64,000 nucleotides of DNA from Thermodesulfobacteriota bacterium (GTDB lineage: Bacteria > Desulfobacterota_D > UBA1144 > Nemesobacterales > Mycalebacteriaceae), in assembly GCA_965205855.1 (NCBI GenBank), contig OZ242184.1, positions 886,570-950,569 on the forward strand, read 5' to 3'. The translations under genes were made by a program, and so were the position numbers. Under the pieces are notes generated by a model. It did no database searches. It had not been told where the DNA came from and saw nothing but the letters and a program-made list of their open reading frames with translations. How positions within the stretch are numbered: the stretch's first letter is position 1; every line of letters begins with the position of its first letter. This document shows positions 42,789-50,776 of this stretch, one piece after another.

Positions 42789-43547
42789 TCAATTATGCCA
42801 CAAAAAGGGATGGAGTGTCAAACTATACGGCGACCGCCTGATAGTCGGGGAGTTCACCCATTGTTTTCCCTCAAGAGCGCGTCCCGTCTTCTTTTTGTTC
42901 ACACCGCCCCATTGTTTGAAGAAAAACGGAACCCCGCTTTCAACGCAGTTGTCCCTGATTTCCGTAACCCATTCCTCTTTCATCGGTCTTGCGCCGGGGC
43001 CGGACTCTCCACCGACAATGACCCAGTCTATGCCTGACAAATTGAGGTTTGGAAACGGGGCAAGCAACGGTTCAAGAGAAAGAAACTTCACGCAAGCATC
43101 GGTCTGTTTTAAAACTTCTGTACGGGAAAGATATTTCTCGGACTCTACGCTTGTTCCCATCCAGATGTTGGAAGTCCAGTGCAGGTGTTTGTTCGCCTTC
43201 ACAACCCTTTCCGGTCTTTTTGTGAGAACCTGAAAAGTGTGTTGAGATGCTTCGTTCATAACTTCAAAAACGGACATAATGAATTTTGCGGGAACATCCT
43301 TGTGGAACAAATCGCTCATTGAATTGACAAAAACTATTTTCGGTTTTTTCCATTTAAGCGGGTCTTTCAAAGTGTGTTCATGAGTGGTGAGTTTGAAACC
43401 GTTTCTGTATTTCTCCATCCCTTGAGCGTGAAGCCGCTTTGCCATCCGCTCGGCGTAGCAGTATTTGCAACCGTGGCTGATTTTTGAACAACCGGTAATG
43501 GGGTTCCATGTTGTGTGAGTCCATCCTATTTTGGAGGGTTGGGTCAT
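42789..43547 (-). CDS. DUF5131 / phage Gp37-Gp68 family protein (Cys-cluster, radical-SAM-like)
   Basis: 252 aa. N-terminal [27 protein letters not shown] signature as I recall for Pfam PF07505. Its start overlaps the res stop (TAATG). Confidence 0.75.
42792..42821 (-). promoter_or_regulatory. candidate rplU-rpmA promoter embedded in the last codons of the upstream DUF5131 gene
   Basis: On the minus strand, TTGACA-18 nt-CATAAT. The -10 hexamer spans the final His-Asn codons (CAT AAT), directly before the TGA stop of the DUF5131 ORF. A GGAG Shine-Dalgarno and the rplU ATG follow within about 30 nt. Confidence 0.45.
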
Positions 43548-46090
43548 TACTGTTTGTTGATAACACCGTTTATATCGTCCCGCCAGCTGTCTTCAAACAT
43601 CATCCTGAAAGTAGCGGGCGTCTTATTGATGGCCATTTCGCCTCTGTCAAGGGCGATCCTGTATGTTTTTTCAAGCGTGTCGAGCAATTTTTTCTTGTAA
43701 CTCGTATCTTCGCTGCCTTTCAGGTGGATGCCCTTTGTTTCCAGAATTAGCAGTTTTCCGTTATCTTTTCGGCAGGCCACAAAATCGGGATACACGCGCT
43801 GGCGTCGCCAGCCTTGCAGATAGTACGCTTGTCTTGCAGCTATTCTGTGCCACCAGTAGATGGCGTTGCTCTTATCCAGATAAAGCGCAAAATCCCGCTC
43901 CAGACCGTTAAAACTACTTTCATAAACAGGTTCAAAAAGGTTTTGCTGTATAGGTCTGCCATGTTCGCTCTGTAATGATCTTTCTTGACTGGAAACAAAA
44001 ACCTCGAACGACTTGCTCAATTCGTAGTCCAGTCGCTGGTCGGTCTCAAGGTGAAACCGAATCACATTCCGCCCAACCTTTTCCCGAAACACCGCTTCGG
44101 CCTCGTCGTCTATGGCCTTGTTCACGCGGCGGCTCAATTCTTCGGAAAGGTAAATTCGGTTATTCAACAATTTGCTTTCATCGTGTTTCCTGTTTTTATG
44201 TGTTTGAATAAACCCCTCCGCCATGCGCGCCGCCTGCCACGGATTGGGCACCTTGTCCACAAGCCGCCGAACAAAATAATCCACGCTCAGCCGCTTTTCG
44301 CTGTCAGGGATTTGTTCCGAAGCCTTAACCTGCCCTTGAATGTCCACCGTGGTTTTGATCTCCTGAGTGATGTCTCTATCATCCAGATTCACCGCTGCGC
44401 CCGCGTCAATGGTGTCCCAATCAATCGCGCTTAATATATCGCGGTCGTAATCAATGGGGCGCCAGGTGCGCCCCGCTTTGTGTAACACCTGCGGGAGAAA
44501 AATTTTCAATGGCCGGTATTTACCACGACGTTTGACGGTGGTCGGTTTCGGTGCATCGCCCTCGCCATGCCCGTGAACAAAATCGCCAAGCCCGGTCAGC
44601 CCTTCATTCTCCAGGCCGGCCTTCACGCCTTTGATCGCCTTGCCTACGACCTGATTATAGCAATAGATATAACACTGGTTCAGCGCATCGCCTTGTGCGA
44701 TTCTGCGTGCATGGGGTTGCCGCATCACCCGACCGACCATTTGCGTGATGGCGGTGGTTGCGGTGGTGTTATCCAGCAAGGCAAGCAGATATGCAAACGA
44801 GCAATCCCAGCCTTCTTTCAGCGCGTCTTTGGTGATAATCCAGCGCACCTCGCTTGTCTCGCTCAACAAATCCTCACCCGCAAGTTCCTTGCGTTCCGAT
44901 GATTGAATCCTGATGTGATTCTCCGGCACAGCAAGATTTTGTATCAGGTATTCGCGCGCATCCTCCGAATGAATTTTTCCTTGCCCTCTTTGTTTTGCGC
45001 CCGTTCTTTCCACCCTGACCAAAGCGATGGGTCGGATATGGCGGTTTTCCTGTTCCTGTAATTTTTGCGCCGCACTTTCAAGCTCATCCAGTTTTTCCTG
45101 TGTTTTGGCAAGCGTGTGTTCCCAGTCGGAATTGCTGAAACTGTGAATCTCTATCGGCAGTTTGATCATCTCCTCGTCCTGGAGGTCGCGGCCCGATGTG
45201 TTGACCAGGATATTGCTGATGCCGATTTTCGGCGTGGCGGACAGTTCAAGCACAAAACGGGGGTTGAGCCGGTTGACGGATTTGACAAACTCCTGGTTGT
45301 TTTGATTATTCGGTCCATATGCTTTATGCGCTTCGTCCAAAATCACCGTGGGACGAATCAGTTTCAGCACATTGATCAGGCTTTGCTTAACCCAGTCGCC
45401 GGGTGCATTTTTCTCCAGGTCGGGATGGTGTTCCGAAAGCGTTGCATTGGCCGCCGCGTCATCCTGCTCGGGAAAAAACGACATATACCCGCTGCTGTCG
45501 CGGAATATTTTGAGAAACTCCCTGTTCTTTTGCCGGTTGGCGGAGGGTAGCATCAGCAGCATAATGCAAAGATAGTTTTCGGTATCCTGTCGGGTAAAGC
45601 GGTCGGTTTTTTGCAACAATTTGACCCTGCCGCCAGACATATGTTCGAGCATCTGCCGGTAGGTATGTTCGCGGGTGTGGAACGCCTGGCGGGTCTGCTC
45701 GTAGATCGCCCGGGTCGGCACAATCCACAACACAAAGCCGGTATCCCGCTTGATCCGCTCAAGCGTGGCCACGCCCAACAGCGTCTTGCCGCCGCCGGTC
45801 GGCACCTTCAGGCAAACATGCGGGATGGGTTCGCCGGATGCCGCAGTGCGGGAAATGTAGCCGGGAACTGCCATGTCACCGTCTTGGGAAATGCCGGGGA
45901 GGATATTTTGATCTTTCAGCGCCTTCCAAGCTAAGAGGGGATAGTTTTGCAGTTCTTCAGGAATATCAATCCCCGACTCTTCAAGAGCTTTGCCCGCCTT
46001 TTCACTAGTCAGCCGCGCTTCCTTGAGCGCGTCCAGCCAGCGGTCTAACTGTTCAAGAGCTTGTTGCTGATAGTTTTTCAGGGAGAGCAT
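43547..46090 (-). CDS. res: Type III restriction enzyme Res subunit (SF2 helicase plus C-terminal nuclease)
   Basis: Helicase motif I VPTGGGKT, motif [10 protein letters not shown], motif [12 protein letters not shown], and a C-terminal PD-ExK-like YPDF...LILETKG. The ATG at 46090 ([13 protein letters not shown]) is preferred because the tracked start at 46225 overlaps orf185. Confidence 0.85.
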
Positions 46091-46091
46091 A

Positions 46092-46649
46092 TCACGGATT
46101 TTTTGAGTCAGTACTGTCTGAATTATTTGGCAAATTGATGATTTCAACAGGCACATTCCTTTTACCAACTGCAAGACCGACAGCGTAGTTACGGATAATA
46201 GTTTGATCCATTTCCATATCCGCATAGCCTTGTGGATAGTACGAACCCCTTAGAATTTCCATCTGTTCTACCTTAAAATCTAGCACCTTGGCCATTGAGC
46301 TAAGCATCTCCGTGAGCAATTCCATTTGCTCCTTGCCGAGTCGTTCATAGTGCGAACGAGAATCATTTTCTTCGTTAGGCCTCTTAGCATGCGTTTCACC
46401 ATAATGCTTGCGGAGTGCTGCCCATTTTTCTATAACTTCTTTATGCTTAACAAATTCTATCTCAACCAGATTAATGGCTCCGACATAATCAGGTGATAAA
46501 CGCGCATTTCGTGTACGCATTAACGTCTTGAATATATCCATTTTTCGCGCCTTTTGTTCGCGCCATCTGTCAAGAAGACCGTTAACCCAGACAGCTGCGC
46601 AAGGACCGATTAAGATGGCTGCAATGGTGATGATAGAATATGAATTCAT
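46092..46649 (-). CDS. hypothetical membrane-anchored protein (185 aa) between mod and res
   Basis: N-terminal TM helix SIITIAAILIGPCAAVWV, then a charged helical region. Visibly AT-richer than the flanking mod and res sequence. Start lies 2 nt after the mod stop, and its stop lies 1 nt before the res ATG. Confidence 0.6.
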   Translation of the reverse strand: MNSYSIITIAAILIGPCAAVWVNGLLDRWREQKARKMDIFKTLMRTRNARLSPDYVGAINLVEIEFVKHKEVIEKWAALRKHYGETHAKRPNEENDSRSHYERLGKEQMELLTEMLSSMAKVLDFKVEQMEILRGSYYPQGYADMEMDQTIIRNYAVGLAVGKRNVPVEIINLPNNSDSTDSKNP

Positions 46650-46651
46650 GT

Positions 46652-48115
46652 TTATCTTATACCCTCATATGGTAATTGGGCAAAAGTTATCCCCATCTCG
46701 GTTAATGCTTTTTGTCCCATGAATTTGTGAGTGGCGAACACCACCGCGGTTTTCTTTTTTGCCTTGGCCTGTTTGGCGATGCGTTCGGCGCGGGTGCTGT
46801 TCAAAGCGGAATCCGCACTGCGCAGAAAATCAAGGTTCGGCTCGTAGATCAGGTAAAACATTTTGTCACCTGCTTCATAAAATAAACCGTCTTTGCCACG
46901 CCTTGTTTTCGGGTTGAGTTTATGCGGCGATTGTCCGCTTGCGGTATAGATCAGATGGCGGGCAAAGGTTTCATAGCCCGGCAGGTTCCTGCCGGTGAGC
47001 ATTTTTTCAATGCTGATTTCATCGCCCAGTGTGCAATAGGCAAAACTGCCGCCCAGTCCGTTTTTTAGGTTCTCATCCTTTGCTTTTGGTATGCCCTTTA
47101 TCACACGGCGAACGCGCTCGGCGGTGATTTTGTCGGCGTAGTCTTCGCATTCCACCAAGATAAATTTGCGGTTGCCGCCGTCTTCCTTGTTCAGCGCAAG
47201 CACGGCGTGGGCAGTGGTGCCGGAACCGGCGAAGGAGTCGAGGATAATGGCGTTTTTTGTCGTTGCCAGTTGTAAAATCTTTTTCACAAGGGAAATTGGT
47301 TTGGGGTTTTGGAACTGATTAGAACCAAACACCGTCCTCAACTCGATTGTGCCGTTGGTTGTTGTACCTACATCATCCCACCAAGTGCTAGGCGTTAACC
47401 CCCTTCGGCGTGCCTCTGACAAAAAACGTTTGCGCTGAGGTCTGGAACTATTTCTCTTTCCGAATACGATTCTATTGTCTGCAAGAAGCTCCTCAAATTT
47501 GTTCAAATCGTTTTTCCAGCAATTACCTTCAGTGGGGTAAAATATTTCTTTTGTTTTAGGGTTTCTTATCGGATACATCTGATTAGGTCGAACCCCACCA
47601 GCCTCAAATGGATCCGCCTTCCATGGGCCTCTCGGATCATTATCAGGATTTTTGAATCCTTCTAAAATGGCAGGAAGTTTGAAATCTTTTCTAATGGTTT
47701 TTAATACATTCAGTTGTTTAGCATAAGCTATATTATGAGTGTGTGATATTGATACTAATGCAGGATTTGTAATTGATTTTGTGCTATGCCACACAAAATC
47801 TGCAACAAAATTCTCCTCCCCAAAAATCTCATCCATGACCATCCGCAGGCGGTGCTGTTCATTGTCGTCGATGGAAATAAAAATTACGCCATCTTCGGCC
47901 AGCAATTCTCTTAACAACTGCAATCTTGGCCACATCATGCACAGCCATTTGTCGTGCCGCTCCAGGTCTTCGCCATCCACCGGACTTTTGCCTTTCAGCC
48001 ACGCCTTCATCATCGGGCTGTTGACATTGTCGTTATAGACCCATTTCTCATTGCCGGTGTTGTAGGGCGGGTCGATGTAAATGCAGTTGACGCGGCTGGC
48101 ATAGCGCGGCAGCAA
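46652..48115 (-). CDS. mod: Type III-like DNA methyltransferase Mod (beta-class N6/N4), main frame downstream of a frameshift
   Basis: Motif IV IDPPYNTG precedes motif I DSFAGSGTT. The frame stays open upstream of the tracked TTG start up to the stop at 48203..48205 (..SFSEKWGGNPSLDDNLIIHGDNLHALKA). The N-terminal 37 codons lie in another frame (next feature). Confidence 0.85.
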   Translation of the reverse strand: MLPRYASRVNCIYIDPPYNTGNEKWVYNDNVNSPMMKAWLKGKSPVDGEDLERHDKWLCMMWPRLQLLRELLAEDGVIFISIDDNEQHRLRMVMDEIFGEENFVADFVWHSTKSITNPALVSISHTHNIAYAKQLNVLKTIRKDFKLPAILEGFKNPDNDPRGPWKADPFEAGGVRPNQMYPIRNPKTKEIFYPTEGNCWKNDLNKFEELLADNRIVFGKRNSSRPQRKRFLSEARRRGLTPSTWWDDVGTTTNGTIELRTVFGSNQFQNPKPISLVKKILQLATTKNAIILDSFAGSGTTAHAVLALNKEDGGNRKFILVECEDYADKITAERVRRVIKGIPKAKDENLKNGLGGSFAYCTLGDEISIEKMLTGRNLPGYETFARHLIYTASGQSPHKLNPKTRRGKDGLFYEAGDKMFYLIYEPNLDFLRSADSALNSTRAERIAKQAKAKKKTAVVFATHKFMGQKALTEMGITFAQLPYEGIR

Positions 48116-48150: not shown

Positions 48151-48291
48151 TCAGATTGTCATCAAGGGAAGGGTTACCCCCCCATTTTTCGCTGAAAGAG
48201 ATTTTTTAGTGTCTATCTCAAGTGTCCTGGACGGAACAGTCAGGTGGTGCGCATAAATGAGTTGCTTCCCTTTGAAATCAATTGTCGGCAT
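48151..48291 (-). pseudogene. mod: 5' segment of mod in a different frame, separated from the main frame at a G7 tract
   Basis: The ATG at 48291 opens MPTIDFKGKQLIYAHHLTVPSRTLEIDTKKSLSAKN followed by the G7 run (plus-strand C7 at 48177..48183). As written, the frame ends at the TGA at 48151. One extra G joins it to the Mod main frame. Confidence 0.7.
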
Positions 48292-48448: not shown

Positions 48449-48768
48449 CCCGCGGTGACATGGAGAACCGGATCAAGGATCAGCAGTTGGATTTGTTTGC
48501 GGATCGCACCTCTTGTCACCGCTGGTGGCCCAACCAGTGCCGGCAGTTGCTGTCAGGGTTGGCTTACACGTTGATTGAGGGATTGCGGCGCCTTGCACTA
48601 CAGGGCACCGAACTGGCCAAAGCCAGTCCTCACAGGATCAGGCTGACACTGCTTAAAATCGGTGCCGTGATCATCCGCAACACGCGCCGCATCCGCCTAC
48701 TGATGAGCAGTGCTTATCCCCATCAGGCGTTGTTCCGCACGGCAGCCTATCGGCTCAACTCCCCATAA
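48449..48768 (+). mobile_element. IS1380-family transposase C-terminal remnant (pseudogene)
   Basis: Encodes only ..ARGDMENRIKDQQLDLFADRTSCHRWWPNQCRQLLSGLAYTL..., which resembles the conserved C-terminal block of IS1380 DDE transposases. About 340 N-terminal residues are absent. Confidence 0.65.
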
Positions 48769-48959: not shown

Positions 48960-50099
48960 TTATTTTCGGATGAGAAACAGAAATTCTTTATTCGGATCGC
49001 TGGATTCCCGCAACCACTCATTTGTCCATTTCATGGCGGCCATCACATTTTTTTTATACTCAATTTTTGCGCTATCCACAATTTCTCCGTTACGCGTTAT
49101 CACCTCGTTTAATTCCTCCGCGGTTGCTCGTCCACCGGAACTGTAAGAGAGCAAGATCCATCGGCAAGGAGTTTCCTTCAGCAAACGCTCTATGGCTTCC
49201 ACCACAACCAATCGTCCTGATTTGCTTCTACGAAATTCCTCGAACACTGAAGTCGCCACTTTATCGGATGTGTCTTTTCTGCGGAGGGACTTGCCAAATA
49301 GCACGGGATGATCATTTTTACATATGGTCGTCCACAAATGATAATATGAAGCGTACCGAACCCTTGAAGGTGGCATTTTTTCATTGTTTGACCCATACGG
49401 AGGATCAAAATAAGCAAGATCGGCGTCCGCTTCGGGAAGTACCTTAAAAACATCACCACACAGCACCGTGTTTTCGATTTCATTTTTCCACAACCGTGGC
49501 ACTTTCAATTGTAAATTTTTGAATGAACGCGGCGACCAATCTTTTAAATAAGAAACAAAATGACCAAGAGTACTGTCTATCTCATTCAACCCTAAAATCA
49601 GGCTTGTCAATGCCACACTTTTGGAAACGTCATCCAGCATCAAGGCATCGATCTCTCTCCTGATTGCATCAAGTTTTCTTGTATTTTTTTTCTGCCAAGG
49701 CTTTTTGGTTCCATCCTTCTGAATAGCATTATGGCAAGTTCCAGAGCGAACATCACCACCGTAATTCTCAGTAAACCATCCGTCTTCCGGAGGAAGCGAA
49801 TTTAAATGATCAATAAGAGGTTGGTATATTTTCGGGTTTTTTAAGTTTTTCAAATAGCACGTGGCAAAAATTCTTGACCATTCGGAAATATCATTTGATA
49901 CCACGCGATATCCTGCTTGTGCAAAAGATTGACTTACTCTGGTGGAGCCTGAAAAACCGTCAAAAATGCTTTTTGCTCCGGTCTGTTTTGACAGATTAAA
50001 AATATGTGGAAGCAGTTTCAGTTTTGAGCCTGCGTAATTGATGCCTTCGGTTTTTGGAACATCAATCCAATCACGAAAAATTTGAACTTGCCCTTGCAT
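48960..50099 (-). CDS. adenine-specific DNA methyltransferase, alpha-class (Dam / D12-like)
   Basis: 379 aa. NYAGSKLKLL, motif I FDGFSGS, motif IV FDPPYG, and a C-terminus ending in EFLFLIRK typical of D12-class enzymes. Confidence 0.8.
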   Translation of the reverse strand: MQGQVQIFRDWIDVPKTEGINYAGSKLKLLPHIFNLSKQTGAKSIFDGFSGSTRVSQSFAQAGYRVVSNDISEWSRIFATCYLKNLKNPKIYQPLIDHLNSLPPEDGWFTENYGGDVRSGTCHNAIQKDGTKKPWQKKNTRKLDAIRREIDALMLDDVSKSVALTSLILGLNEIDSTLGHFVSYLKDWSPRSFKNLQLKVPRLWKNEIENTVLCGDVFKVLPEADADLAYFDPPYGSNNEKMPPSRVRYASYYHLWTTICKNDHPVLFGKSLRRKDTSDKVATSVFEEFRRSKSGRLVVVEAIERLLKETPCRWILLSYSSGGRATAEELNEVITRNGEIVDSAKIEYKKNVMAAMKWTNEWLRESSDPNKEFLFLIRK

Positions 50100-50776
50100 T
50101 ATGTAACTTTAAAGCGGGAAGCCTGCTTGAGTCTAACAATATCATCTTTCACTTTTGCAAGAGCCTCATTCTGGCCGAAATCAGAAGAAACAAGCGCGTG
50201 AGAAAATAGTTGGACCAAGATAGGATTGTGAGAATAATCAACCCATCCATTGGTTATGCTATCAAAATAGTTTAAACCACTTTTTGTATGAGTCCAAAGC
50301 CCTCGCTGGAGGGCATTGGCGGTTGCGCTTCCATAACGCACCTCGCAAATATAAGAATCGCTTGCATCGTAGAAACGATATACTGGGTGCTTTCTACCTT
50401 TCTTTTTTGTTTCTTTTACTATTTTCACCGTTTCAGTTTCAGCGCGGTGGTAATCGAAGACAAGAATATTACACTGTCGATTTTTTTCGTCATAAATTAA
50501 TGGCAAAACATTTACATTGTAAAAATCCGAGAAAGCGGGGTCGGCAAGCACTCGTTGTACATTTTTCTTGCCCACTATTTCATCCCCCTCTTGTGCCAAT
50601 CTCGGAAACATTTTGAAATTCTTGTCGGTTGAAAGTTGAAGGGGACCATCACCATACGCTTTGATGCTAACAGGAAATTCAGCTTCGGTTACTTCATTTA
50701 TTATTTTGATGTCTTCTTCCCGAGATTTGGCTCTGTATAAATCTTTGCCAACATGGATCGAGCGAAAATCATACAT
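50099..50776 (-). CDS. hypothetical protein, candidate Type II restriction endonuclease partner of the Dam-like methylase
   Basis: 225 aa. Its stop overlaps the methylase start. Possible PD-ExK-like element (FYDASDSYICEVRYG). No family recognised. Confidence 0.4.
   Translation of the reverse strand: MYDFRSIHVGKDLYRAKSREEDIKIINEVTEAEFPVSIKAYGDGPLQLSTDKNFKMFPRLAQEGDEIVGKKNVQRVLADPAFSDFYNVNVLPLIYDEKNRQCNILVFDYHRAETETVKIVKETKKKGRKHPVYRFYDASDSYICEVRYGSATANALQRGLWTHTKSGLNYFDSITNGWVDYSHNPILVQLFSHALVSSDFGQNEALAKVKDDIVRLKQASRFKVT

What the first reader, a model, noticed from the sequence alone, without database searches (positions are those of the whole stretch)
46092..46649. AT-rich 185-aa membrane-anchored ORF inserted between mod and res
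The ORF sits in the position where mod and res normally abut. It has one N-terminal TM helix followed by a charged, probably helical domain (..DIFKTLMRTRNARLSPDYVGAINLVEIEF..). By eye it is clearly AT-richer than the flanking mod 3' end and res sequence, which suggests separate acquisition. I recognise no catalytic motif. It faintly recalls an uncharacterised DUF family of N-terminally anchored proteins, but I cannot verify that. Its junctions of 2 nt and 1 nt with the neighbouring genes argue that it is expressed with them.
Basis: partly seen in the sequence, partly recalled or inferred. Interest (0 to 1): 0.6.

Follow-up and report, generated by a model that had tools for sequence, protein, structure and literature searches.

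The report
DUF6680 cassette inside a restriction operon
A small membrane-anchored protein gene of unknown function (Pfam DUF6680) is inserted between the methylase and nuclease genes of a Type III restriction system; relatives also sit inside other restriction operons and in phage defence hotspots, so it is a candidate, untested defence accessory gene.

Summary
The ORF at 46092-46649 (-) is a real 185-aa gene. It sits 2 nt after mod and 1 nt before res. It is AT-richer than its flanks (GC 0.42, GC3 0.40; res GC3 0.61). It is a full-length member of Pfam DUF6680 (E 6e-47), with one N-terminal TM helix and a confidently predicted cytoplasmic helical bundle that has no informative structural relative.

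Related Type III systems in Chryseobacterium, Alicyclobacillus and Proteus have mod abutting res, so the gene is an insertion. The mod-DUF6680-res block recurs in sponge-symbiont genomes from two phyla. There DUF6680 is under purifying selection (dN/dS 0.26-0.60), but its history is decoupled from its flanks.

Across 70 species, DUF6680 is AT-richer than its host in nearly every locus. In 31 of 70 it has a conserved ~112-aa partner gene. It also lies inside a Type I R-M operon, next to Type II R-M genes, beside a TIR gene, in prophages, and in the gpA-gpQ defence hotspot of a P2-like phage. Many copies, however, simply follow housekeeping genes.

Best guess (about 0.4): a mobile membrane-acting defence accessory coupled to the R-M enzyme, by PrrC-like logic. 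Function is untested. No paper in the searched library mentions DUF6680.

The parts
46092..46649 (-). DUF6680 gene (185 aa), the feature in question
   Evidence: ORF. Pfam PF20385 E 5.9e-47, full length. AF2 mean pLDDT 87, all-alpha. dN/dS 0.26-0.60.
46572..46637 (-). Codons ~5-26: the single N-terminal transmembrane helix, with an invariant Gly15-Pro16. Predicted topology is N-out / C-in.
   Evidence: Hydrophobicity and flanking charge across 120 family members. G15 and P16 are invariant in alignment A2.
46652..48115 (-). Type III mod, main reading frame (487 aa from a TTG). It carries the DPPY and FAGSG motifs. The central target-recognition region is swapped between orthologues.
   Evidence: Pfam N6_N4_Mtase 5e-32. 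PADLOC MTase_III 9e-146, starting at model position ~53-58. TRD mosaic.
48151..48291 (-). 5' fragment of mod (46 codons from the ATG at 48291) in a different frame from the main mod ORF
   Evidence: tblastn of the L004, L007 and L011 Mod N-termini, and three-frame translation. DNA.
48177..48183 (-). Poly-G tract (G7 on the coding strand) at the mod frameshift. G8 would restore a full-length Mod. The orthologous site in L005 has G24.
43547..46090 (-). Type III res (847 aa), with helicase motifs and a C-terminal PD-ExK-like motif. It starts 1 nt after the DUF6680 stop.
   Evidence: PADLOC REase_III 6e-213, full length. Pfam ResIII. Start confirmed by alignment.
42789..43547 (-). DUF5131 gene whose ATG overlaps the res stop by 1 nt. 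It is operon-linked here but lies outside the shared mod-DUF6680-res block.
   Evidence: Pfam DUF5131 3.8e-98. PADLOC PDC-M41B and PDC-M30B. Homology to L005 ends at the res stop. No homologue in L004, L005 or L011.

Best explanation
**Shown:**
- The ORF is a genuine, selectively maintained gene of the DUF6680 family.
- It encodes a single-pass membrane protein. It has a very short external N-terminus, a TM helix with an invariant Gly-Pro, and a cytoplasmic bundle of 4-5 helices carrying conserved Arg, Glu, Gln and Tyr residues.
- It was inserted as a cassette exactly at the mod/res junction of a Type III R-M operon.
- The three genes now move as one block. Homology between the window and the Ca. 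Spongiihabitans locus starts at the mod start and stops at the res stop, and the chromosomal neighbourhoods differ.
- The DUF6680 allele has been exchanged or diversified independently of its flanks.

**Inferred:**
- It is transcribed with mod and res and is translationally coupled to them (2-nt and 1-nt junctions).
- It acts as an accessory defence module at the inner face of the membrane.

**Mechanism I commit to:** it works as a second-line effector or sensor that cooperates with, or is held in check by, the Type III enzyme. A phage that escapes or inhibits restriction would trigger membrane-level exclusion or abortive infection. This is the logic of PrrC embedded in the EcoprrI Type Ic operon, carried out by an unrelated protein. 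In the 44% of family members that are not in R-M operons but have the ~112-aa upstream partner, that partner would play the regulating role.
For: - **Family and structure:**
- **Insertion:**
- **Conserved architecture:** mod-DUF6680-res occurs in Gammaproteobacteria (L001/L005) and Nitrospirota (L002/L004, L011), with Res as low as 37-38% identical. These DUF6680 copies form one clade in an NJ tree.
- **Block boundaries:**
- **Purifying selection:**
- **Hypervariable or decoupled history:**
- **Independent embedding in a Type I operon:** hsdM, AbiEi_4-like, partner, DUF6680, hsdS, hsdR in L018 and L021.
- **Type II neighbours:** a NotI-like REase plus an MTase in L049, and an MTase in L037.
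- **TIR neighbour:** L087 and L088.
- **Prophage cargo:** L081 and L089.
- **P2-like phage:** Yersinia phage gp15 is DUF6680 (Pfam 4e-31) and lies between gpA and gpQ. That interval is a documented anti-phage hotspot (PMC9122126; PMC13586616).
- **Foreign composition:** AT-richer than host in 70 of 71 loci.
- **Precedent:** PrrC (PMC1484252, PMC3458546).
Against: - No defence-system model recognises the protein (PADLOC), and there is no literature on it.
- Only about 8 of 70 species-level loci have R-M genes as immediate neighbours, and 4 of those are one clade.
- Many copies simply follow housekeeping genes: class II ribonucleotide reductase in 5-7 loci, gyrB, cysS, and rpoD-DUF983.
- The nearest Type III relatives work without it, so it is not needed for restriction.
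- No expression, interaction or phenotype data exist.
- The RM3 clade differs from the family consensus at several nearly invariant positions (for example H117 is S or D), so its function may have drifted.
Confidence: 0.4

Rival explanations
1. Selfish passenger or addiction-type module. DUF6680, alone or with its small partner, is a mobile 'moron' that lands just downstream of expressed genes and is kept because it is hard to lose or is neutral. Its place in the R-M operon reflects a permissive, transcribed junction in an already mobile cassette, not a role in restriction.
For: - Contexts are very heterogeneous. It is often co-directional and within a few nt of the stop of unrelated upstream genes (nrdJ, cysS, gyrB, rpoD operon).
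- It has a family-wide foreign composition.
- The two-gene layout with a 4-nt overlap resembles toxin-antitoxin organisation.
- In L007 it decays together with the R-M genes.
- dN/dS rises to 0.60 in the closest pair.
Against: - The same junction is occupied in operons whose Res proteins are only 37-38% identical, and across two phyla.
- Alleles are replaced rather than lost between near-identical operons.
- It is embedded independently in a Type I operon and sits in a phage defence hotspot.
- No transposase, recombinase or repeat boundary is attached to it.
Confidence: 0.3
2. Auxiliary subunit or regulator of the Type III enzyme. One version is a membrane tether that places Mod2Res at the inner membrane where phage DNA enters. 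The other is a spacer gene that tunes res translation relative to mod, delaying restriction after transfer or during phase switching.
For: - It is tightly coupled between mod and res.
- Its cytoplasmic domain sits next to the membrane.
- The block is inherited as a unit.
- The mod gene carries a poly-G tract, so operon expression is probably switched.
Against: - Over 85% of family members have no R-M neighbour.
- Related Type III systems lack it.
- Its sequence evolves out of step with Mod and Res, which is the opposite of what is expected for an obligate interacting subunit.
Confidence: 0.15
3. Spurious or decaying ORF with no product.
For: It has a low GC3 relative to its neighbours. One orthologue (L007) is frameshifted.
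Against: Pfam E 6e-47 over the full length. All 17 family-invariant residues are retained. dN/dS is below 1 in every comparison. It is intact in four other genomes.
Confidence: 0.03

Closest known systems
PrrC anticodon nuclease embedded in the EcoprrI Type Ic R-M operon (hsdM-hsdS-prrC-hsdR)
   Same: It is an extra gene sitting inside an R-M operon, co-directional with the R-M genes, optional for restriction itself, and found only in some relatives of the system. It serves as a model for an R-M-silenced back-up defence (PMC1484252, PMC3458546).
   Different: PrrC is a soluble ABC-ATPase plus tRNase, whereas DUF6680 is a small single-pass membrane protein with a helical bundle and no NTPase or nuclease motif. 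The host system here is Type III, not Type I. No activation mechanism is known. prrC is always R-M linked, while DUF6680 mostly is not.
Accessory genes of the P2 gpA-gpQ hotspot (old, tin and the single-gene systems of Rousset et al. 2022)
   Same: A bona fide DUF6680 gene (gp15) occupies this hotspot in Yersinia phage vB_YenM_31.17. It is a small, AT-rich, horizontally shuffled cargo gene.
   Different: DUF6680 was not among the systems named in the passages I searched in those papers. The phage copy is only ~26% identical to the window protein and is untested.
Prophage superinfection-exclusion proteins (small N-terminally anchored membrane proteins such as lactococcal Sie2009 or T4 Imm); this comparison rests on my own knowledge.
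   Same: Similar size, a single N-terminal TM anchor, and carriage as morons in prophages and plasmids.
   Different: No sequence or fold relationship was found. The bulk of DUF6680 is predicted to be cytoplasmic. Most copies are chromosomal and outside prophages.
Phase-variable Type III mod genes (phasevarions; PMC1976455)
   Same: The host operon's mod has a homopolymeric G tract early in the ORF. Its length differs between orthologues (G7 versus G24), and it sets the reading frame.
   Different: This concerns the neighbouring gene, not DUF6680. Switching was not observed, and a long-read homopolymer error cannot be excluded.

Membership tests
Pfam PF20385 (DUF6680) | Full-length match to the family HMM above the gathering score (23.2 bits) | tested here: met
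   159.9 bits, E 5.9e-47, residues 1-177 on model positions 1-168 of 170
Pfam PF20385 (DUF6680) | Single N-terminal hydrophobic helix with Gly-Pro, followed by the TLMRTR, NLVEIEF and GxYxPQ motifs | tested here: met
   The window protein retains all 17 positions that are invariant in 120 members. A TM segment is present in 97.5% of members and in the window protein.
DUF6680 two-gene module (partner + DUF6680) | A ~112-aa partner gene immediately upstream, usually overlapping by 4 nt | tested here: not met
   The partner is present in 31 of 70 loci. There is no homologue anywhere in the window, and it is absent from the whole Type III-embedded clade.
Type III restriction-modification operon (host of the insertion) | Mod: an N6/N4 methyltransferase with DPPY before FxGxG and a central TRD | tested here: met
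   Pfam N6_N4_Mtase and PADLOC MTase_III 9e-146. The motifs are visible in the translation.
Type III restriction-modification operon (host of the insertion) | Res: a superfamily-2 helicase with a C-terminal PD-(D/E)xK nuclease motif | tested here: met
   PADLOC REase_III 6e-213 over 3-841 of 847. Pfam ResIII. A 'YPDF...ILETKG' motif lies near the C-terminus (reading this as PD-ExK is my interpretation).
Type III restriction-modification operon (host of the insertion) | mod and res adjacent or overlapping, with mod intact | tested here: not met
   A 558-nt gene lies between them. As assembled, mod is frameshifted at G7.
PrrC-like R-M-embedded abortive-infection gene | Gene located inside an R-M operon | tested here: met
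   and for the Type I case.
PrrC-like R-M-embedded abortive-infection gene | ABC-type NTPase N-domain and anticodon-nuclease C-domain | tested here: not met
   Pfam, NCBIfam and PADLOC give no such hit. The fold is a TM helix plus a helical bundle.
PrrC-like R-M-embedded abortive-infection gene | Kept latent by the R-M enzyme and activated by a phage anti-restriction factor | not testable with these tools
   Needs genetics and biochemistry.
Known anti-phage defence systems (PADLOC-DB v2) | Match to any model of a known or candidate defence protein | tested here: not met
   0 families at E <= 0.1.
Phasevarion-type Type III mod (neighbouring gene) | Simple-sequence repeat within the 5' part of the mod ORF whose length sets the frame | tested here: met
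   G7 at 48177-48183 puts the first 46 codons out of frame, and G8 would restore the frame. The orthologue L005 has G24 at the same site.
Phasevarion-type Type III mod (neighbouring gene) | Observed ON/OFF length variation within a population | not testable with these tools
   Needs the sequencing reads.

The most novel reading that the evidence does not exclude
DUF6680, alone or with its ~112-aa GrlR-like partner, is a previously unrecognised, widespread membrane-acting anti-phage effector family of about 2,800 clusters at 50% identity. It can be plugged into R-M operons of Types I and III, where the R-M enzyme replaces the partner as the licensing or sensing component. That would be an R-M-guarded abortive-infection or exclusion module. 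Its hypervariability, next to the equally hypervariable mod TRD, would reflect an arms race with phage anti-restriction functions.
Probability: 0.25. Interest if true: 0.75.

Novelty: new variant of a known kind. Interest (0 to 1): 0.5.

Why it matters
Type III R-M operons are textbook two-gene units. A conserved third gene at the mod/res junction, from a large uncharacterised membrane-protein family, is a concrete and cloneable lead. The same family also appears inside a Type I operon, beside Type II and TIR genes, and in the P2 defence hotspot.

If the gene adds a second layer of immunity, it would extend the PrrC paradigm to Type III systems and to a membrane effector. PrrC is an R-M enzyme guarding a suicide module, and few worked examples of that arrangement exist. 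It would also assign a function to DUF6680 and its unnamed partner family.

If it is only a passenger, it is still a clean case of a single gene repeatedly inserting within a few nucleotides of the stop codons of expressed genes with no visible mobility machinery. That is unexplained.

Tried and rejected
- **Family libraries:** PADLOC, NCBIfam and PHROGs gave no hit for the window protein. PHROGs gave no hit for the phage copies or the partner.
- **Fold searches:**
  - Foldseek against PDB and BFVD found nothing with E < 0.6.
  - The afdb50 library was unavailable.
- **PDB sequence profile search:** nothing.
- **Literature:** 0 papers mention DUF6680. No paper describes a gene between mod and res.
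- **Exact-protein lookup of the window protein:** not on record. Cluster lookups gave no names.
- **Metagenome scan with the Type III-embedded clade:** found no further members. The IMG/VR scan found only two loci.
- **Ferritin-like or di-iron bundle idea:** I considered this because of the conserved Glu and His residues and the link to ribonucleotide reductase. I dropped it because the His positions are not conserved in the embedded clade and no fold match supports it.
- **Partner as a TSCPD domain:** I considered this because DUF6680 often follows the TSCPD-ending class II RNR. Pfam does not support it.
- **Gene caller artefact:** my crude gene caller missed many DUF6680 and partner genes in high-GC genomes because it required high GC3. 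The partner count was redone by tblastn, rising from 11 to 31 loci.
- **R-M census:** it used seeds taken from the loci themselves, so it gives a lower bound and is partly circular.

Full report
**1. The observation**

The minus strand carries an ATG-started ORF of 185 codons at 46092..46649. It is bracketed by a Type III mod (46652..48115) and a Type III res (43547..46090).
- Mod matches PADLOC MTase_III at 9e-146 and Pfam N6_N4_Mtase.
- Res matches PADLOC REase_III at 6e-213 and Pfam ResIII.

Reading the DNA confirms the junctions. The mod TAA is followed by 2 nt and then the ORF's ATG. The ORF's TGA is followed by 1 nt and then the res ATG. That res start aligns with residue 1 of an orthologous Res.

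Composition:

| Region | GC | GC3 |
|---|---|---|
| DUF6680 ORF | 0.421 | 0.398 |
| mod, last 600 nt | 0.508 | n/a |
| res, first 600 nt | 0.552 | n/a |
| res, whole gene | 0.517 | 0.607 |
| mod, whole gene | 0.468 | 0.523 |
| mod, central 600 nt | 0.407 | n/a |
| 64-kb window | 0.488 | n/a |

The ORF sits at the 5th percentile of equal-sized windows. The drop is real but moderate, and the central part of mod is as AT-rich as the ORF.

**2. What the protein is**

Pfam places it in DUF6680 (PF20385) at E 5.9e-47 over the full length. PADLOC, NCBIfam and PHROGs give nothing, and no paper in the library mentions the family.

An exhaustive profile search finds 2,828 clusters at 50% identity, essentially all 110-260 aa and single-domain.

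With a 120-sequence alignment, AlphaFold2 gives mean pLDDT 87. The model has a long helix at 3-45, whose first part is the hydrophobic segment, followed by a bundle of four to five helices.

Across 120 members:
- 97.5% have exactly one strongly hydrophobic segment.
- The N-tail has a median length of 4 residues with no net charge.
- The 19 residues after the segment carry a median of 7 Lys/Arg.

By the positive-inside rule the helical domain is therefore cytoplasmic.

Seventeen positions are invariant, including Gly15-Pro16 inside the TM helix, R47, E63, E93, R103, Q129, Y137 and R153. The window protein keeps all of them.

Structure searches are uninformative:
- Foldseek against PDB and BFVD has no hit below E 0.6.
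- A PDB sequence-profile search finds nothing.

**3. It is an insertion, and the three genes form a mobile block**

The closest annotated relatives of this Res (37-43% identity, full length) are in a Chryseobacterium plasmid, an Alicyclobacillus plasmid and a Proteus replicon. In these, mod and res overlap by 1 nt, lie 5 nt apart, or abut, with nothing between them.

The mod-DUF6680-res arrangement occurs in:
- Ca. Spongiihabitans (L001/L005; DUF6680 81% identical);
- two Nitrospirales MAGs (L002/L004 at 66%, L011 at 42%);
- a Poriferihabitaceae MAG (L007), as a decayed remnant with mod truncated, DUF6680 frameshifted and res gone.

These hosts belong to two phyla.

Nucleotide homology between the window and L005 begins at the mod start and ends at the res stop. 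The surrounding genes differ: rplU-rpmA-alaS here, efp and uvrC there. The unit that moves is therefore the three-gene block. In an NJ tree of 65 family members, without support values, the R-M-embedded copies form one clade.

**4. The gene's history is decoupled from its flanks**

Amino-acid identities:

| Pair | Res | DUF6680 | Mod |
|---|---|---|---|
| window vs L005 | 91% | 81% | 64% |
| window vs L004 | 38% | 66% | 48% |
| L004 vs L011 | 86% | 46% | 64% |

Sliding windows show two variable modules set between conserved arms.
- The first is the mod target-recognition region, at 8-25% amino-acid identity between otherwise 90-98% identical genes.
- The second is DUF6680. It is 22-75% identical between L004 and L011, whose flanks are 85-98% identical.

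Synonymous divergence between the window and L004 is 0.73 for DUF6680, against 2.0 for mod and 2.7 for res.

dN/dS for DUF6680 is 0.26-0.60, against 0.21-0.29 for res. The gene is constrained, but less tightly than res.

Together this indicates allele replacement or exchange at the junction rather than simple co-divergence. That supports 'separate acquisition' more strongly than composition does.

**5. The family at large**

In 71 loci (70 species-representative loci plus one metagenome contig), DUF6680 is AT-richer than its surroundings in 70. The median difference is -0.11 GC and the median percentile is 0.035. Foreign composition is thus a trait of the family.

By tblastn, 31 of 70 loci carry a conserved ~112-aa gene next to DUF6680. 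In 28 it is directly upstream and co-directional, typically with a 4-nt overlap. It has no Pfam or PHROG family. It has only a marginal profile hit to GrlR (E 0.03). The window has no copy.

Contexts with a defence or mobile flavour:
- **L018 and L021 (Ca. Porisulfidus):** a Type I operon reading hsdM, AbiEi_4-like, partner, DUF6680, hsdS, hsdR with a Schlafen domain. A dGTPase-like HD gene lies upstream.
- **L049:** SRAP, partner, DUF6680, a NotI-like REase, then an MTase.
- **L037:** partner, DUF6680, then an N6/N4 MTase.
- **L087 and L088:** DUF6680, a TIR protein, an unknown gene, with IS110 nearby in L087 only.
- **L081:** a prophage head module with portal, minor head protein, partner and DUF6680.
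- **L089:** a prophage edge.
- **Vibrio plasmids**.
- **Yersinia Peduoviridae phage:** gp15 is DUF6680 (Pfam 4e-31) and lies between gpA and gpQ. That interval is documented as a hotspot of anti-phage systems in P2-like phages (PMC9122126; PMC13586616).

Against this, many copies sit directly after housekeeping genes on the same strand:
- class II ribonucleotide reductase, in 5 loci within 77 nt and 2 more within 2 kb;
- gyrB, followed by the partner;
- cysS, with a 4-nt overlap;
- the dnaG-rpoD-DUF983 operon;
- several are isolated among metabolic genes.

R-M genes are immediate neighbours in at least 8 of 70 loci, representing at least four independent lineages. I judge this well above what two random neighbours would give, but I could not compute a proper background.

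**6. Mechanism**

Shown:
- The gene is real and under selection.
- The product is an N-out/C-in single-pass membrane protein with a cytoplasmic helical bundle.
- It is a cassette inserted at the mod/res junction and inherited with the operon, but it is exchanged independently.

Inferred:
- It is co-transcribed and translationally coupled.
- It has a defence-related role.

My preferred model (about 0.4) is an accessory second-line module acting at the membrane and functionally tied to the Type III enzyme, by the logic of PrrC in the EcoprrI operon (PMC1484252, PMC3458546). The invariant Gly-Pro in the TM helix suggests that the helix does more than anchor the protein, for instance oligomerisation or gating. 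That point is inference only.

Rivals:
- A selfish passenger or addiction-like module that exploits transcribed junctions (0.3).
- A tether or expression spacer for the R-M enzyme (0.15).
- A non-functional ORF (0.03), effectively excluded.

**7. Comparison and novelty**

The protein is a member of DUF6680: every family feature I could test is met except the optional partner. It is not a member of any known defence protein family (PADLOC negative). It is not a PrrC homologue, since the domains are absent.

What is new is the architecture:
- a Type III operon with a conserved third gene from this family;
- the family-level pattern of embedding in R-M operons of two types, the partner gene, hotspot and prophage carriage, and uniform foreign composition.

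I rate it a new variant of a known kind (an R-M operon with an embedded accessory gene). Interest is moderate (0.5) because the function rests entirely on context.

**8. Relevant side finding**

The mod gene is split as assembled. Its first 46 codons, from the ATG at 48291, are out of frame with the 487-aa ORF because of a G7 tract at 48177-48183, and G8 would restore a ~545-aa Mod. The orthologous site in L005 has G24 followed by (TAA)3 and is also out of frame. L004, L011 and L007 have no tract.

This looks like a phase-variable Type III mod of the phasevarion type (PMC1976455), or else a homopolymer assembly error. Either way it bears on how DUF6680 and res, which lie downstream, are expressed.

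Noticed in passing
window 48151-48291 and 48177-48183 (minus strand); L005 6396-6419: The Type III mod is frameshifted at a poly-G tract. The window has G7, and G8 would give a full-length Mod. The orthologue in Ca. Spongiihabitans has G24 at the same site and is also out of frame. This is either phasevarion-like phase variation or a long-read homopolymer error.
   Followed up: partly
window 42789-43547 (minus strand): A DUF5131 gene (Pfam 3.8e-98; PADLOC candidate-system proteins PDC-M41B and PDC-M30B; weak radical-SAM 'mobile pair A' similarity) has a start codon that overlaps the res stop by 1 nt. It is not part of the mod-DUF6680-res block shared with L005 and is absent from the other embedded loci.
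   Followed up: partly
window 48460-48768 (plus strand): A C-terminal fragment (about 100 aa, model positions 332-431 of 435) of a DDE_Tnp_1_4 transposase lies just upstream of mod. It is an IS remnant separating two R-M-like loci.
   Followed up: no
window 48960-50776 (minus strand): This looks like a second R-M-like pair. A D12-class adenine methyltransferase (48960-50099) has a start that overlaps by 1 nt the stop of an upstream 225-aa ORF (50099-50776) with no Pfam, NCBIfam or PHROG hit, possibly an orphan-family restriction endonuclease. The region is AT-rich (GC 0.40-0.42). Together with the Type III locus it forms a defence island next to rplU-rpmA-alaS.
   Followed up: no
L018 7549-7974, L036 7603-7941, L049 7606-7980 and 28 other loci: A conserved, unnamed ~112-aa protein family (motif GIYAMYYTG..GSGHAVLVMKDG.I.GAD) lies next to DUF6680 in 31 of 70 species. 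It is usually directly upstream with a 4-nt overlap. It has no Pfam or PHROG family and only a marginal profile hit to the T3SS regulator GrlR (E 0.03).
   Followed up: partly
L013, L016, L020, L029, L072 (also L047, L054): DUF6680 lies 6-77 nt downstream of, and co-directional with, the class II (B12-dependent) ribonucleotide reductase gene in five species, from at least two DUF6680 clades. In two more species it lies within 2 kb. This is unexplained: it could be an insertion hotspot or a functional link.
   Followed up: no
L018 3454-13501 and L021 (Ca. Porisulfidus): A Type I R-M operon has three genes embedded between hsdM and hsdS (AbiEi_4-like, partner, DUF6680). Its HsdR carries a C-terminal Schlafen/AlbA_2 domain. 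A dGTPase-like HD gene lies immediately upstream.
   Followed up: partly
window 47250-47850; L004 and L011 mod centre: The central target-recognition region of mod is swapped between otherwise 90-98% identical genes (8-25% amino-acid identity). It is as AT-rich (GC 0.37-0.41) as the DUF6680 gene.
   Followed up: partly
L007 7019-8900: A decayed copy of the block in a Poriferihabitaceae MAG. The mod is cut to 316 aa, DUF6680 is frameshifted after residue ~122, and res is missing. A HicB-like antitoxin ORF follows.
   Followed up: partly
L020 8764-9657: Immediately downstream of the nrdJ-DUF6680 pair there is a roughly 200-nt tandemly repeated DNA element of at least three copies, with a run of N. 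It shows up as a spurious repetitive ORF.
   Followed up: no
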